NCBI RefSeq assembly: GCF_002854065.1
Contig: NZ_CP024153.1
Direction: 5' to 3' (one strand)
Source of the DNA: Escherichia coli
Lineage (GTDB): Bacteria; Pseudomonadota; Gammaproteobacteria; Enterobacterales; Enterobacteriaceae
Length of the DNA: 64,000 nt
In this document: piece by piece, positions 15,001 to 21,000 of the stretch
How positions within the stretch are numbered: position 1 is the stretch's first letter
Layout of the letters: each line of letters opens with the position of its first letter
Made by a program: the position numbers

Positions 15001-18000
15001 ACAATCAAGCGATCGAAGGGTTATCAGCAGCGATTTGTCAGGCAACTTGCAGAATTAAGCAGGAGTTCGGAGACCCCGGCCCTGCCAGGTTCCTGATGAT
15101 TGTGCAGGAGAATGAAAATAATGTGTTTGATCAACACTTGCTTGAGCTCGCCCTCCAGCAAAAAGGAATCGAAACGCATCGCAGGACTTTTCGTGAACTG
15201 CATAATCAATTGAGTACAGGCGCCGACAACAGGCTCATTCTCGAGGGTGTAGGCCCACTTGATACCGTCTACTTACGTGCCGGATATCAGTATTCTGATT
15301 ATGAAGCATTCAATATCGATGAGCAGGAGTGTTGTCAGGCGCTGATGGCGACCCGAGTATTCATTGAGCAGCACCGGGTTGCAGTGAACGCCACAGTTGG
15401 CCAGCAACTGGCGACCAGCAAGCGAGTACAAATGCTGCTCTCGCAATTGGGTTACGACGAGTTTGTCGCATTTGGATTAACACTGCAGGAAGCTAAAATA
15501 GCAAAAACGATACTGGGTGAGATGTTACCCATCAGCCCGGATAGTATCAACCTTGCAAAAGAGTCTCCTTCGGAAACCTGGGTTCTCAAAAATCAGGGTG
15601 AAGGCGGGGGGCATTGTCTGTTTGGTGCGGATATCCTGACAAAACTGACGGAACTCACTCCACAACAATATCAGTCCTGGTCGCTGATGCGCCGTTTACA
15701 CCCTCAGCCCCGAGCTATGCCCACCTTGATTGTGCGTAAAGGGGAGTTGCATAAGGTGAATGATTTGATAAGCGAACTTGGAATGTTCTCCGTGCAGACA
15801 GATAACAATCCCTCCAGTGCTGAGCACAGTTTTGCTGGATATCTAATTCGTAGCAAATCAGCTGAATCGACAGAGGGAGGGGTCCATAGTGGACAAGGTG
15901 TTTTAGACTCGCTGGTATACAGCGATTAGTCCCTTTCAAGGGGGCTGAAATCTGGTTATATGAAAGCATGCGGTAAGTGGTGTTTTAGCCCCAGTGGAGA
16001 TGATGCTGTTTCTAGACTGAGTCGTAGTAAGCTAATAATAGTATTATAAATGAAGCCATGAGGGTATTTACAGGGCATATCTTATTAAGGGAACAACAGC
16101 AAAAACTGCTGCTATAAGAGGCTGCACCCAAAGTTCTTCAAGGTTCACATCATCGCTGCTGGGTCGATGCTGTTTCAGTTACGGGTCAATTTTCAATACC
16201 ATTAGCTGTTCCTGTGACTACGGTCATTACGCGCTGTCGACATCAATTTGTACAGCAAACAGTCTTAGCGTGGGATATTTAATGAGATGGTCACTCCCTC
16301 CTTCCCGGTACTATGCTGAGGATAGGCTTTCATTCGGAGAACTATCATGGAAAACATTGCGCTCATTGGTATCGATCTGGGTAAAAACTCTTTCCATATT
16401 CATTGCCAAGATCGTCGCGGCAAGGCTGTTTACCGTAAAAAATTTACACGGCCAAAGTTAATCGAATTTTTGGCGACATGCCCCGCTACAACCATCGCAA
16501 TGGAAGCCTGTGGTGGCTCTCACTTTATGGCACGCAAGTTGGAAGAGTTGGGGCATTTTCCTAAGCTGATATCACCACAATTTGTCCGTCCATTCGTTAA
16601 AAGTAACAAAAACGACTTTGTCGACGCCGAAGCTATTTGTGAAGCTGCATCGCGTCCGTCTATGCGTTTTGTACAGCCCAGAACTGAATCTCAGCAGGCA
16701 ATGCGTGCGCTGCATCGTGTCCGTGAATCCCTGGTTCAGGATAAGGTAAAAACAACCAATCAGATGCATGCTTTTCTGCTGGAATTTGGCATCAGCGTTC
16801 CACGAGGAGCTGCCGTTATTAGCCGACTGAGTACCCTTCTTGAGGACAATAGTTTGCCTCTATACCTCAGCCAGTTATTGCTGAAATTACAACAGCATTA
16901 TCACTATCTTGTTGAGCAGATTAAAGATTTGGAATCCCAGTTGAAACGAAAGTTGGACGAAGATGAGATTGGACAGCGCTTGCTGAGCATTCCCTGCGTC
17001 GGAACACTGACAGCGAGTACTATTTCAACTGAGATTGGCGACGGGAAGCAGTACGCCAGCAGTCGTGACTTTGCGGCGGCAACAGGGCTAGTGCCTCGAC
17101 AGTACAGCACGGGAGGTCGGACGACATTGCTGGGAATTAGTAAGCGAGGTAACAAAAAGATCCGAACTTTGTTGGTTCAATGTGCCAGGGTATTCATACA
17201 AAAACTGGAACACCAGTCTGGCAAATTGGCCGATTGGGTCAGGGATCTACTGTGTAGGAAAAGCAACTTTGTCGTCACTTGTGCTCTGGCAAACAAGCTG
17301 GCCAGAATAGCCTGGGCCCTAACGGCACGACAGCAAACTTATGTAGCATAACGGCAGAAATACACCGGTTTAAAGAATCACTGATCTGGTTTTGCGAATA
17401 CTGATATTGATGATACTAACGGCCCACCGGCCTGTTGAGGAACCTGTAAAACGGAAAGGCTCATTGAAGCCGTATATTTTCTGGAGGTTCATCAGGCGCG
17501 GAACTCATCGAGGCGCGGGAATAAAATCCCATTCAGACGCCGGATAGATTCAAGCAAGCCAATTTATCGTCAAAATCGGTGTTGCAAAAACGGGAGTGAC
17601 CATAGATTCCGTTTTCCAAGCGGACCCCGTGCTGTGTGGAAATCCGCCCACCTTGCCGGGCGCCGGTGCTGTGTGGAAATTCGCCCATCTTCATGACAAA
17701 AATTTGTCAAATGACAGGCTCATGTGTGCTGATTTATGTCAGACGGGATTTTGCTTATCAATTATTGAGAACAGAAATTTTCCTGAATCATCAATACTAT
17801 ACTTAGCAAGTAAAGGTGTTTTCTCATTTATCTGCTTGAGAGCAGGATCAAGGAAAGATCGTTTCAACTCTGCCAAGTTCTTCTGTTGGGATTCCGGCAA
17901 AAGGAAACGGTCATTTAACCAAGCATGAGTAGTAACCCATAAGCCTGAAGATTTGAATTGAGCAAGACTTTCATAAAGGCGGATCGTCCGTGGATTTCGA

Positions 18001-21000
18001 AGACTGCCACAATCGCGGAGCGAGTAGGTGGTGAACTGGTTCGTCAGGCCGTAAATGTACCGCAGGAGTTTATGGTTAAATTCGATTTCCCAGATACCAC
18101 GAGCTGATCGGCTGCCAGCCTCTGTTAGCCAGGGGCGCGCGACGCAGTCAAAACTCCCTTCTTTCGGGTAAAAGATTACCGCAGAACGGCTTAACTCAAA
18201 CACGCCTTCTTTAACATCCTTGATAGCCTGGTTACGGCTTACCTGAAAAATTTGCTGATAGTCAGCCACCTTTACTTTGAAAGTAGAGTCACCGAGTACA
18301 GCCATCTCATCATCATCTTCGCTTACTGAAGCTGTGAAATACGTCTGCATAAGACATAACCAGAGAACGCGCTTTGCTTTTAGCGAGAGGTAGTAAGCAG
18401 CTTCGGTAAGCTCGTTAGACGGCACTGTTGCAAAGTTAGCGATGAGGCAGCCTTTTGTCTTATTCAAAGGCCTTACATTTCAAAAACTCTGCTTACCAGG
18501 CGCATTTCGCCCAGGGGATCACCATAATAAAATGCTGAGGCCTGGCCTTTGCGTAGTGCACGCATCACCTCAATACCTTTGATGGTGGCGTAAGCCGTCT
18601 TCATGGATTTAAATCCCAGCGTGGCGTTGATTATCCGTTTCAGTTTGCCATGATCGCATTCAATCACGTTGTTCCGGTACTTAATCTGTCGGTGTTCAAC
18701 GTCAGACGGGCACCGGCCTTCGCGTTTGAGCAGAGCAAGCGCGCGACCATAGGCGGGCGCTTTATCCGTGTTGATGAATCGTGGGATCTGCCACTTCTTC
18801 ACGTTGTTGAGGATTTTACCCAGAAACCGGTATGCAGCTTTGCTGTTACGACGGGAGGAGAGATAAAAATCGACAGTGCGGCCCCGGCTGTCGACGGCCC
18901 GGTACAGATACGCCCAGCGGCCATTGACCTTCACGTAGGTTTCATCCATGTGCCACGGGCAAAGATCGGAAGGGTTACGCCAGTACCAGCGCAGCCGTTT
19001 TTCCATTTCAGGCGCATAACGCTGAACCCAGCGGTAAATCGTGGAGTGATCGACATTCACTCCGCGTTCAGCCAGCATCTCCTGCAGCTCACGGTAACTG
19101 ATGCCGTATTTGCAGTACCAGCGTACGGCCCACAGAATGATGTCACGCTGAAAATGCCGGCCTTTGAATGGGTTCATGTGCAGCTCCATCAGCAAAAGGG
19201 GATGATAAGTTTATCACCACCGACTATTTGCAACAGTGCCGATTAGAGCACTATAAAGAACTAAAGAAATGAAGATACAAAGATACGAATATCTGAATAA
19301 AAACAGAAAAATGCGTACCCATCCACCTTTCAGTGCGTACCCATCCACCTTTCAGTGCGCAGCCATCCACCTTTCATGAAAATTACAGTGCGTACCCATC
19401 CACCTTTCAGTGCGTACCCATCCACCTTTCATTTTGAGGCGACAAAAAACAACACCTATCTTAATGAAATTATTGATAAAAAAACTGGCACAATGTTTGC
19501 AGAATAAGTTAGAGTAAGTTAAAGATCTTAAAGTAGATCTACCGATCTACATTTAAGATCTTAAAAACAAGAAGTTTAATAAGCAAAAAAACACAAAAAA
19601 TCTGTGGATAACTTTGCTCAAAACAAAAAATTCACACTACCTGTGGATAACTTTGCGTAAACCCAGAGGACAGATCACTCTGAACCAAGACAACCACACA
19701 TAAAAACAATATGCTCGCTTTTTAACCACTGCGCGTAATTGCCTGATGTTATCCCTGTGCTGTTCCGCTTCCTCGCTCACTAACTCGCTACACTCGGTCG
19801 TTCGGCTGCGGCGAGCGGTGTCTCCTTTCTCAAAACCAGAAGAGTTCAGATCATACGATCCGTTGATTGATCCTTTTTGGATCTTTCACTGAGAAGCCCT
19901 GAATCGCTTTCTAACGCTTTGTTCGATGTAACCATGAGGAAAACCATGTGAAATCGAAAAAATCGCTCAGAATGCGATACAGCGCGTTTTAGAGGGTATT
20001 TACAAAACAGTCGTTGCCTTGAGGAAATTTTGATCAAGATTGAACTCCTATCCGGATCATGGCAACAGATCACAGCAACAAGGCCGCTAAAAAGCGTTGA
20101 GCGGCGTTAAAAACCGTTAAACCGTAGCTGACTATAACGAAACGGGAAAAAACGCTCAGAACGCGTTACAGAGCGTTTTAAGGCGATGTCGGAAAGAGCC
20201 ATACCTCACCTGTTCTGATGTTTTTCTCAACACAAGCACTTTTAAGAGTACTTTTAAAGATGCTATTATGCCAATAAGACAAGCGGAGGACTTATGAGCT
20301 ATCAAATTCTGACAACCACAGCGGCCAGTATTACTGACCTGAAAAAAAATCCTATGGGAACCGTAGCTGAAGGTGAAGGGGACGCTGTTGCGATCCTGAA
20401 CCGAAACGAACCGGCGTTCTATTGCGTTCCACCAAAACTTTACGCCTACTATCGGGAACTCGCTGAAGATGCTGAGTTAAACGCTGTTGCTGATGAGCGC
20501 ATGAAAAACCCGGAAATTGTGAAGGTTAACCTGGATGACCTATGAACTGGCTTTTGACCGCAGAGCACTGAAGGAATGGCAGAAACTCGGCCACACCATC
20601 CGTGAACAATTCAAAAAGAAGCTGGCAGAACGGCTGGAAAATCCACGCGTACCCGCAGCCCGGTTACATGGTCATGCTGATCGCTATAAAATCAAACTTC
20701 GTGCATCTGGCTACAGACTTGTATATCAAGTCATTGATGAGAAAGTCGTTTTACTCGTTATTGCTGTTGGAAGAAGGGAAAGCAGCGAAGTTTATCAGAT
20801 TGCAGATATGCGCTGAACTGAAACCCGCCCCGTAATTCGCGGCTGCAGCCGCTCAGACGCGCAGATGCTACACACCGTCACGGCGTACCGTTCGCAAGCT
20901 TACGCGCTAACTGCGAAAGGCTAATTGCGTGTTGTTAGTCCGGTAATGGGCTTTGCAGGGAGGGGGGATGTCCCTGATCTTAATTAAGCTGGTTTGTTTC

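What the first reader, a model, noticed from the sequence alone, without database searches (positions are those of the whole stretch)
17739..19650. Secondary RepE-like replicon decapitated by IS26 while keeping its iterons, AT-rich region and DnaA boxes
IS26 sits exactly between five 22-bp iterons with two DnaA boxes and the rep gene body, removing the promoter and about 20 N-terminal codons. The surviving iterons could still titrate initiator supplied in trans and exert incompatibility, while the plasmid presumably relies on the RepFIB replicon at 60.5 kb.
Basis: partly seen in the sequence, partly recalled or inferred. Interest (0 to 1): 0.5.

Follow-up and report, generated by a model that had tools for sequence, protein, structure and literature searches.

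The report
IS26 joining two different replicon remnants
The rep gene fragment and the iterons on either side of this IS26 come from two unrelated plasmid replicons (IncN and IncX1) that IS26 brought together, an ordinary and already described kind of resistance-plasmid mosaic rather than one replicon cut in two.

Summary
The physical features are real. They are an 820-bp IS26 (18421-19240), a 5'-truncated RepE-like rep gene on its left (17739-18420, minus strand), and five 22-bp iterons, an AT-rich stretch and two perfect DnaA boxes on its right (19312-19650).

They do not belong to one replicon. The rep body is IncN repA: it is 100% identical to R46 RepA over residues 14-239, and 38 bp (13 codons, not about 20) are missing. 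The native IncN origin and promoter are absent from the window. The iterons and DnaA boxes are the origin of an IncX1 (pOLA52/pD90-3-type) replicon. Its own initiator gene pir, which starts 181 bp from the junction in intact plasmids, is deleted together with repX/bis.

IS26 has no 8-bp target duplication. Each junction occurs separately in other plasmids: the IncN side in at least 219 PLSDB records and the IncX1 side in 28. Both modules are described in the literature (PMC6052338).

Neither remnant can replicate the plasmid. An intact RepFIB-type replicon at 60.0-61.6 kb is the only complete replicon in the window. The orphan IncX1 origin could still bind pi protein supplied in trans, which is inference by analogy with the R6K gamma origin. 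The truncated repA mainly causes spurious "IncN" typing and annotation.

This is ordinary and already known.

The parts
13468..14289 (-). IS26 copy (822 bp) forming the left boundary of the IS26-gshB-IncN-remnant module; same orientation as the IS26 at 18421
   Evidence: colinear with pPCN061p6 and pSTM6-275 modules
14466..15929 (+). glutathione synthase (gshB-like) passenger gene of the module
   Evidence: NCBIfam TIGR01986 E=5e-70, below the curated cut-off; annotated as glutathione synthase in pPCN061p6, pSTM6-275 and pD90-3
16281..17607 (+). IS4321 (IS110 family, 1327 bp; transposase 16347-17351) inserted in a 38-bp Tn3-family terminal inverted repeat (halves at 16264-16280 and 17608-17628)
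   Evidence: alignment with the uninterrupted pSTM6-275 sequence; NCBIfam IS110 E=7.5e-102; annotated IS4321 in pPCN061p6
17629..17702 (.). two remaining copies of the IncN 37-bp downstream iteron (GTGCTGTGTGGAAATCCGCCCACCTTGCCGGGCGCCG)
   Evidence: sequence; matches the R46 array; pSTM6-275 has about 7 copies at this place
17739..18420 (-). IncN repA lacking its first 38 bp (codons 14-239 plus stop retained, 100% amino-acid identity to R46 RepA)
   Evidence: Rep3_N and Rep3_C domains; RepE E=1.4e-29
17739..18467 (-). IS26::repA fusion ORF (242 aa) starting at a TTG inside IS26, 5 nt after the tnp26 stop codon; 16 IS26-encoded residues replace the 13 native ones
   Evidence: annotated by PGAP as replication initiation protein WP_152921961.1 in other plasmids; no promoter-like site at the junction
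18421..19240 (-). IS26 (820 bp; tnp26 18473-19177 on the minus strand; 14-bp inverted repeats); flanks CGTTAGAC / GATTAGAG, no target-site duplication
19241..21002 (.). IncX1 backbone remnant, 100% identical to pD90-3 starting 181 bp upstream of the pir start codon; pir, repX/bis and ddp3 missing
19312..19432 (+). five 22-bp IncX1 iterons (TGCGTACCCATCCACCTTTCAG), spacing 22, 22, 33, 22
   Evidence: five iterons are the normal number upstream of IncX1 pir/repX (PMC3402527)
19433..19602 (.). AT-rich stretch (73% A+T) with GATC-containing palindromes at 19519-19565
19603..19650 (-). two perfect DnaA boxes TTATCCACA (19603-19611, 19642-19650) within a 37-bp direct repeat
20294..20816 (+). stbD (20294-20545) and stbE (20535-20816), the Phd/YefM-RelE toxin-antitoxin pair of IncX plasmids
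   Evidence: ORFs; annotation in the hits; stbDE described for R485/IncX (PMC3402527)
21003..21147 (.). 145-bp IS26 end fragment, followed by an IS91-family (IS1294-type) transposase gene at 21313-22512 on the minus strand
   Evidence: the same IS26/IS1294 boundary is described in PMC6052338
59922..61639 (+). intact RepFIB-type replicon: rep gene 60516-61525, DnaA box 60491-60499, and 11 TGACTGCGGTATG-like iterons (8 upstream, 3 downstream)

Best explanation
The IS26 at 18421-19240 is a shared boundary between two IS26-associated passenger segments that carry dead pieces of two different replicons.

On the left is the known module IS26-gshB-(IS4321)-IncN 37-bp iterons-repA lacking 38 bp. On the right is an IncX1 segment (origin iterons, AT-rich region, DnaA boxes, stbDE, IS1294, IS50, aph(3')-IIa) from which pir, repX/bis and ddp3 have been removed.

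The juxtaposition arose by IS26 activity. The route could be an adjacent deletion, conservative incorporation next to an existing IS26, or recombination between IS26 copies. It was not an insertion of IS26 into an intact replicon. A pD90-3-like IncN/IncX1 hybrid needs a single IS26-adjacent deletion of about 24 kb to give exactly this arrangement.

Function (inferred):
- Neither remnant can initiate replication by itself.
- The plasmid is maintained by the RepFIB-type replicon, plus any replicon outside the window.
- The IncX1 origin is an orphan, pi-dependent origin, comparable to an R6K gamma-origin vector. It could fire or titrate and handcuff pi, and so express IncX1 incompatibility, only if an IncX1 plasmid shares the cell.
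- The repA remnant is a pseudogene whose main practical effect is false IncN replicon calls.
For: Shown:
- The rep body matches R46 (IncN) at 99.6% nucleotide identity and 100% amino-acid identity over residues 14-239. The homology stops exactly at the IS26 end.
- The R46 sequence upstream of repA (promoter, five 22-bp iterons, AT-rich region) has no match anywhere in the window.
- Window 19241-25276 is 100% identical to pD90-3 over 6036 bp. In pD90-3 the pir gene starts 181 bp left of the junction.
- The window contains no pir or repX.
- IS26 has no target-site duplication.
- The repA-IS26 junction is found in at least 219 PLSDB records and the IS26-IncX1 origin junction in 28. In pSTM6-275 the two junctions lie at two separate IS26 copies about 140 kb apart.
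- pD90-3 carries the same gshB-repA remnant-IS26 module together with an intact IncX1 replicon.

Literature:
- PMC6052338 describes IncN repA truncated by IS26 with 37-bp iterons and gshB, and the IncX1 segment ddp3-bis-repX-pir-stbDE bounded by IS26 and IS1294.
- PMC4196232 shows that IS26 units incorporate next to an existing IS26 without a target-site duplication.
- PMC3163176 states that the R6K gamma origin requires pi in trans.

The RepFIB-type rep gene is intact, with flanking iterons and a DnaA box.
Against: - No database record has both flanks on one IS26 (0 records at 80% or more coverage in PLSDB and in RefSeq complete E. coli genomes). The exact order of events is therefore inferred, and a repeat-mediated misassembly cannot be excluded.
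- Only 64 kb of the plasmid is visible. A pir gene or an IncN origin could lie outside the window.
- An in-frame TTG fusion ORF exists and lies 5 nt downstream of the tnp26 stop codon on the same strand, so low-level expression of a near-full-length RepA is not excluded.
- The in-trans behaviour of the IncX1 origin is extrapolated from R6K and was not tested for IncX1.
Confidence: 0.9

Rival explanations
1. One reading: a single secondary RepE-like replicon whose rep gene was cut from its own iterons, AT-rich region and DnaA boxes by a simple IS26 insertion.
For: The architecture looks right. Iterons, an AT-rich region and DnaA boxes lie upstream of a leftward-reading Rep_3 gene. The native IncN origin also has five 22-bp iterons with the same CCACCTT core.
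Against: The flanks are not contiguous in R46 or in any IncX1 plasmid. There is no 8-bp duplication. The iterons are identical to those upstream of IncX1 pir, and pi is only 24% identical to IncN RepA. Outside the 7-bp core only 4-6 of 12 iteron positions match.
Confidence: 0.02
2. The IS26::repA fusion ORF (242 aa) is expressed by read-through or translational re-initiation from tnp26. The product is an active IncN initiator or regulator that acts on the 2 adjacent and roughly 29 distant 37-bp IncN iterons, or cross-reacts with the neighbouring IncX1 iterons.
For: There is an in-frame TTG 5 nt after the tnp26 stop codon on the same strand. The whole Rep3_N and Rep3_C region is retained. PGAP calls the ORF a replication initiation protein. 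The junction is conserved in at least 219 plasmids. A 29-copy 37-bp array lies in the same window. The iteron core CCACCTT is shared.
Against: No promoter-like site is present at the junction. The start is TTG, and the only Shine-Dalgarno-like bases (TAAGG) lie too close to it. RepA residues 9-13, which align with the start of the RepE structure, are replaced. The IncN origin upstream of repA is absent. Conservation of the junction is explained by hitch-hiking at near 100% identity.
Confidence: 0.04
3. The adjacency is an assembly artefact: with eight IS26 copies or fragments in 64 kb, the assembler joined the wrong flanks across an 820-bp repeat.
For: Each junction is common on its own, but the combination is absent from PLSDB and from RefSeq complete E. 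coli genomes. IS26 copies are 99.6-100% identical.
Against: The left module (13468-19240) and the right module (19241-25276) are each fully colinear with known structures ending at an IS26. IS26 arrays that share single copies are the expected natural product (PMC4196232). Nothing in the sequence itself signals a break.
Confidence: 0.06
4. The orphan IncX1 origin with stbDE is retained because it is useful. It could act as an incompatibility or exclusion determinant against incoming IncX1 plasmids, or as a conditional origin that lets the host plasmid exploit pi.
For: The complete set of five iterons, the AT-rich region and the DnaA boxes are preserved right up to 71 bp from IS26. The same junction is found in 28 plasmids of several backbones, including IncHI2. 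The R6K gamma origin works with pi in trans (PMC3163176).
Against: The segment is physically linked to stbDE and to resistance genes (aph(3')-IIa, oqxAB), which are sufficient to explain its spread. The 28 records are nearly identical, so they give no signal of selection. No experiment addresses this.
Confidence: 0.1

Closest known systems
IS26-bounded IncN remnant module (IS26-gshB-37-bp iterons-truncated repA-IS26) of F33:A-:B-, IncHI2 and IncX1 hybrid plasmids (pHNFP460-1, pSTM6-275, pPCN061p6, pD90-3)
   Same: The repA/IS26 junction, gshB, the Tn3-family inverted repeat and the flanking IS26 copies are identical. Window 13468-19240 is 98.8-99.9% identical to those plasmids (PMC6052338).
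   Different: The window has only 2 copies of the 37-bp iteron. Like pPCN061p6 and unlike pSTM6-275, it has IS4321 in the inverted repeat. The right-hand IS26 here abuts an IncX1 origin.
IncX1 replication and maintenance region of pOLA52 / pD90-3 type (ddp3-bis-repX-pir-iterons-stbDE)
   Same: The five 22-bp iterons, AT-rich region, two DnaA boxes, stbDE and the downstream IS26 fragment/IS1294/IS50/aph(3')-IIa are 100% identical to pD90-3. Five iterons are the usual number (PMC3402527).
   Different: pir, its 181-bp promoter/operator region, repX/bis and ddp3 are missing. IS26 takes their place, as in 28 other plasmids.
R6K gamma origin separated from pir (pi-dependent conditional origin)
   Same: The layout is the same: DnaA boxes, AT-rich region, a block of 22-bp iterons, then the pir promoter. 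The origin is present without its initiator gene (PMC3163176).
   Different: The iteron sequence and number differ (5 here; 7 in R6K, from memory). Trans-activation has not been shown for the IncX1 origin. Here the separation is a natural IS26 deletion, not an engineered one.
IncN basic replicon of pCU1/R46
   Same: The RepA sequence and the 37-bp iterons downstream of repA match.
   Different: The first 13 codons, the promoter, the five upstream 22-bp iterons and the AT-rich region of R46 are absent. The assignment of these elements to oriB and to RepA binding rests on my recollection of Papp and Iyer 1995, which could not be read.

Membership tests
IncN replicon (R46/pCU1 type) | RepA protein of the R46 type | tested here: met
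   100% amino-acid identity over residues 14-239 and 99.6% nucleotide identity over 795 bp.
IncN replicon (R46/pCU1 type) | Complete repA with its native start codon and promoter | tested here: not met
   38 bp (13 codons) and all upstream sequence are replaced by IS26.
IncN replicon (R46/pCU1 type) | Upstream origin region: five 22-bp iterons, AT-rich region and a DnaA-box-like site | tested here: not met
   R46 positions L001 3793-4400 have no BLAST match anywhere in the window.
IncN replicon (R46/pCU1 type) | 37-bp tandem iterons downstream of repA | tested here: met
   Two copies lie at 17629-17702. A separate 29.4-copy array lies at 53882-54967.
IncX1 replicon (pOLA52/pD90-3 type) | Block of five 22-bp iterons with AT-rich region and DnaA boxes upstream of pir | tested here: met
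   100% identical to pD90-3, which MOB-suite types as IncX1. Five iterons are the normal number according to PMC3402527.
IncX1 replicon (pOLA52/pD90-3 type) | pir (pi initiator) gene adjacent to the iterons | tested here: not met
   Neither nucleotide nor protein-level searches find pir in the window. The only tblastn match of pi is the weak one (22% identity) to IncN repA.
IncX1 replicon (pOLA52/pD90-3 type) | Accessory genes bis/repX and ddp3 | tested here: not met
   pD90-3 positions L003 2100-5000 have no match in the window.
IncX1 replicon (pOLA52/pD90-3 type) | stbDE addiction module next to the origin | tested here: met
   ORFs at 20294-20545 and 20535-20816 are identical to the annotated stbD/stbE (RelE family) of IncX1 plasmids.
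IS26 (IS6 family) | 820-bp element with 14-bp terminal inverted repeats and tnp26 | tested here: met
   annotated as an IS26 transposase in matching records.
   Flanks are CGTTAGAC and GATTAGAG.
   The left flank continues into the IncN origin in R46. The right flank continues into IncX1 pir in pD90-3.
Pi-dependent conditional origin (R6K gamma type) | Replicates only when the cognate initiator is supplied in trans, and its iterons exert incompatibility | not testable with these tools
   The anatomy is compatible and the R6K precedent exists (PMC3163176).
RepFIB-type replicon (at 60 kb) | Intact Rep_3 initiator flanked by its iterons and preceded by a DnaA box | tested here: met
   Rep3_N E=9.4e-11 and Rep3_C. 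There are 11 TGACTGCGGTATG-like repeats at 59922-61639 and a DnaA box at 60491-60499. The assignment to FIB rests on a resemblance to P307 RepA recalled from memory and on the MOB-suite IncFIB call for pS13D.

The most novel reading that the evidence does not exclude
The most novel reading not excluded is that the replicon remnants are not inert. In this reading the IS26::repA fusion protein is made at low level from tnp26 read-through and binds the roughly 31 IncN 37-bp iterons on the plasmid, and perhaps the neighbouring IncX1 iterons through the shared CCACCTT core. Alternatively, or in addition, the orphan IncX1 origin acts as a selected incompatibility or exclusion device against IncX1 and IncN competitors. 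That would explain why these junctions persist in hundreds of resistance plasmids.
Probability: 0.05. Interest if true: 0.45.

Novelty: already known. Interest (0 to 1): 0.12.

Why it matters
The value is mainly practical.
- The truncated IncN repA is annotated by PGAP as an intact replication initiation protein.
- It triggers "IncN" calls in replicon typing. pD90-3 is typed IncN,IncX1 although its only IncN rep gene is this remnant. Multi-replicon or host-range claims based on such calls can therefore be wrong.
- Iteron/DnaA-box architecture next to a rep gene does not prove that they belong together in IS26-rich mosaics.
- If the orphan IncX1 origin really titrates pi, it would influence which plasmids can co-reside with this family of plasmids. 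That remains untested.

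Tried and rejected
- I searched for the exact two-sided arrangement in PLSDB and in RefSeq complete E. coli genomes. No record covers 80% or more of 17300-20900, so no direct precedent or source record was identified.
- I looked for the IncN upstream origin and for IncX1 pir/repX elsewhere in the window by blastn and tblastn. None was found.
- I scanned for a hybrid outward promoter at the IS26/repA junction. There was no consensus match, and the single promoter-like hit lies inside repA.
- I tested whether the IncN and IncX1 iterons are close enough to suggest cross-recognition. Only the 7-bp core plus 4-6 of 12 other positions match, which is not clearly above chance.
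- I tried to read the primary pCU1 literature (Papp and Iyer 1995) and searched for oriB/oriS/oriV papers. They are not held, so statements on pCU1 origin usage rest on memory.
- NCBIfam gave no family for the RepFIB-type protein. Pfam did.
- I considered whether the similarity of the two IS26 flanks (shared TTAGA) could be a degenerate target-site duplication. I rejected this because each flank continues into a different reference plasmid.

Full report
**1. Observation**

- IS26 occupies 18421-19240. It is 820 bp with perfect 14-bp terminal inverted repeats and tnp26 on the minus strand. It is 100% identical to two other copies in the window, which holds six complete copies and two fragments.
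- To its right lie five 22-bp repeats (TGCGTACCCATCCACCTTTCAG) at 19312, 19334, 19356, 19389 and 19411. Shuffles give 0 matches and there are no further copies in the window.
- Next comes a 170-bp stretch of 73% A+T with GATC-containing palindromes.
- Then come two perfect DnaA boxes, TTATCCACA, at 19603-19611 and 19642-19650 on the minus strand.
- To the left of IS26, on the minus strand, is a rep gene body at 17739-18420 with Rep3_N and Rep3_C domains. Its closest solved structure is RepE of F (E=1.4e-29).

**2. What the left flank is**

Window 17629-18420 matches the IncN reference plasmid R46 at 99.6% nucleotide identity. Translation is 100% identical to R46 RepA residues 14-239.
- The homology ends exactly at the IS26 end. 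38 bp of repA are missing, which is 13 residues (MDKLLNKKIKVKQ) and not about 20. The native ATG is preceded by an in-frame TAA, so no longer native form exists.
- In R46 the DNA upstream of repA holds five 22-bp iterons at 22-bp spacing (consensus TTATGGGAATTGGCCCACCTT), then an AT-rich region and a DnaA-box-like site. None of this has a match anywhere in the window.
- Downstream of repA, only two of the IncN 37-bp iterons survive (17629-17702).
- At 17628 the IncN sequence abuts a 38-bp Tn3-family inverted repeat that is itself split by IS4321 (16281-17607).
- Further left are a glutathione-synthase gene and another IS26 in direct orientation (13468-14289).
- The whole block 13468-19240 is 98.8-99.9% identical to modules in pPCN061p6, pSTM6-275 and pD90-3.
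- The literature describes it as an "additional IncN replication region" with a truncated repA, 37-bp iterons and gshB between IS26 copies (PMC6052338).
- The repA/IS26 junction itself is present in at least 219 PLSDB records.

**3. What the right flank is**

Window 19241-25276 is 100% identical over 6036 bp to pD90-3, a 38.9-kb Salmonella plasmid typed IncN,IncX1.
- In pD90-3 and in p3-H9, the sequence continues leftwards from the junction for 181 bp. This stretch contains partial iteron-like ATCCACCTT motifs. It then runs into the start of a 279-aa Rep_3 initiator (pir), followed by a second initiator gene (repX/bis) and ddp.
- Burmolle et al. state that five iterons upstream of pir/repX are the normal IncX1 arrangement, and that stbDE is the IncX addiction locus (PMC3402527).
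- The iterons, AT-rich region and DnaA boxes are therefore the IncX1 origin. The order is DnaA boxes, AT-rich region, iterons, pir promoter, pir. From memory, this is the same order as in the R6K gamma origin.
- pir, repX/bis and ddp3 are absent from the window at both nucleotide and protein level.
- IncX1 pi and IncN RepA are only 24% identical.
- The IS26/IncX1-origin junction at exactly this base is found in 28 PLSDB records, including large IncHI2 plasmids.

**4. How the junction arose**

The 8-bp flanks of IS26 differ (CGTTAGAC versus GATTAGAG). Each flank continues into a different plasmid type in the references. IS26 therefore did not insert into one replicon.
- In pSTM6-275 the two junctions sit on different IS26 copies about 140 kb apart.
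- In pD90-3 the repA-IS26 junction and the intact IncX1 replicon are about 24 kb apart, in an orientation where one IS26-adjacent deletion would produce the window's arrangement.
- IS26 is known to incorporate units next to an existing IS26 conservatively, without a target-site duplication. This gives arrays in which segments share single IS26 copies (PMC4196232).
- Which route was used here (adjacent deletion, conservative incorporation, or recombination between IS26 copies) is inference.
- No record in PLSDB or in RefSeq complete E. coli genomes has both flanks on one IS26. The precise combination is therefore unrecorded there, and a repeat-driven misassembly cannot be formally excluded.

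**5. How it most likely works**

Shown: neither remnant is a complete replicon. An intact RepFIB-type replicon lies at 59.9-61.6 kb. It has a rep gene at 60516-61525 with Rep3_N and Rep3_C domains, 11 flanking iterons, and a DnaA box. It sits next to sopAB.

Inferred:
- The plasmid depends on this RepFIB-type replicon, or on replicons outside the window.
- The IncX1 origin is an orphan pi-dependent origin. By analogy with the R6K gamma origin, which needs pi in trans (PMC3163176), it should be silent unless an IncX1 plasmid supplies pi. In that case it could fire or titrate pi and express IncX1 incompatibility.
- The repA remnant is most likely a pseudogene.

On the repA remnant in more detail:
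- An in-frame TTG inside IS26 (18467), 5 nt after the tnp26 stop codon on the same strand, opens a 242-aa fusion ORF. In it, 16 IS26-encoded residues replace the 13 native ones.
- PGAP annotates exactly this ORF as "replication initiation protein" WP_152921961.1.
- Against function: there is no promoter-like site at the junction. There is no well-spaced ribosome-binding site. Residues aligned with the first structured residues of RepE are replaced. No IncN origin is left.
- A practical consequence is visible. pD90-3 is typed "IncN,IncX1" although this remnant is its only IncN rep gene.

**6. Comparison with what is known, and novelty**

Both modules, their IS26 boundaries and their spread among F33:A-:B-, IncHI2 and IncX1 hybrid plasmids are already described (PMC6052338 and PMC10654068). 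The window adds only a new adjacency of two known pieces. The finding is ordinary.

Its unifying interpretation is not. The error was invited by a real resemblance: the native IncN origin also has five 22-bp iterons with the same CCACCTT core. Beyond that core, only 4-6 of 12 positions match, which is not clearly above chance.

**7. Caveats**

- Statements about pCU1 origin usage and RepA binding sites, the RepFIB assignment by similarity to P307 RepA, the seven iterons of R6K, and the ColE1 primosome-site resemblance rest on memory. The primary pCU1 papers could not be retrieved.
- Only 64 kb of the plasmid is visible.

Noticed in passing
window 53882-54967: There are 29.4 tandem copies of the IncN 37-bp iteron (about 91-93% identical to the R46 array), with no repA next to them. 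IncN-like sequence continues to about 55077. Similar arrays (24 and 31 copies) are reported as IncN remnants in IncR and F33 plasmids (PMC9412624, PMC6052338).
   Followed up: partly
window 53776-54976: Three overlapping ORFs of 363-391 aa on the minus strand lie entirely within the 37-bp repeat array. They are almost certainly repeat artefacts, not genes.
   Followed up: no
window 16264-17628: IS4321 (1327 bp) is inserted at its characteristic position inside a 38-bp Tn3-family terminal inverted repeat that directly abuts the IncN iterons. pSTM6-275 has the same inverted repeat uninterrupted and about 7 iteron copies.
   Followed up: yes
window 19763-19822: About 60 bp between the IncX1 origin and stbDE are roughly 93% identical to the pBR322/ColE1 sequence CTTCCGCTTCCTCGCTCACTGACTCGCTGCGCTCGGTCGTTCGGCTGCGGCGAGCGG.
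   Followed up: partly
window 19519-19565: GATC-containing palindromes (TTAAAGATCTTAAA / TTTAAGATCTTAAA) give four GATC sites within about 40 bp inside the AT-rich part of the IncX1 origin. They could be Dam/SeqA-sensitive elements or part of the origin-proximal inverted repeat that IncX papers link to an oriT.
   Followed up: no
window 19958-19998 and 20143-20184: A direct repeat of about 35 bp (AAAAAAYCGCTCAGAAYGCGWTACAGMGCGTTTTA) occurs twice upstream of stbD. Its function is unknown.
   Followed up: no
window 17739-18467; pD90-3 (L008 8299-9027): PGAP annotates the IS26::repA fusion ORF as the intact "replication initiation protein" WP_152921961.1. MOB-suite types pD90-3 as IncN,IncX1 although this truncated gene is its only IncN rep. 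This is a source of false multi-replicon calls.
   Followed up: partly
window 9368-9447 and 13468-14289: There is a 40-bp tandem duplication of an IS26 end with an extra inverted-repeat copy at 9434-9447. One IS26 copy is 822 bp, with two extra bases relative to the others.
   Followed up: no
window 57347-57553 and 63648-63796: 4.8 copies of a 43-bp repeat lie just downstream of sopB (sopC-like centromere). 2.9 copies of a 52-bp repeat built from AGACTACAAAG-like 11-mers lie near the window end. The latter was not identified.
   Followed up: no
window 25277-32112: oqxAB-sized ORFs (1050 aa and 391 aa) lie between two directly oriented IS26 copies, as in Tn6010. They follow the IS50/aph(3')-IIa segment, the same order as described for the F33:A-:B- variable regions (PMC6052338).
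   Followed up: no
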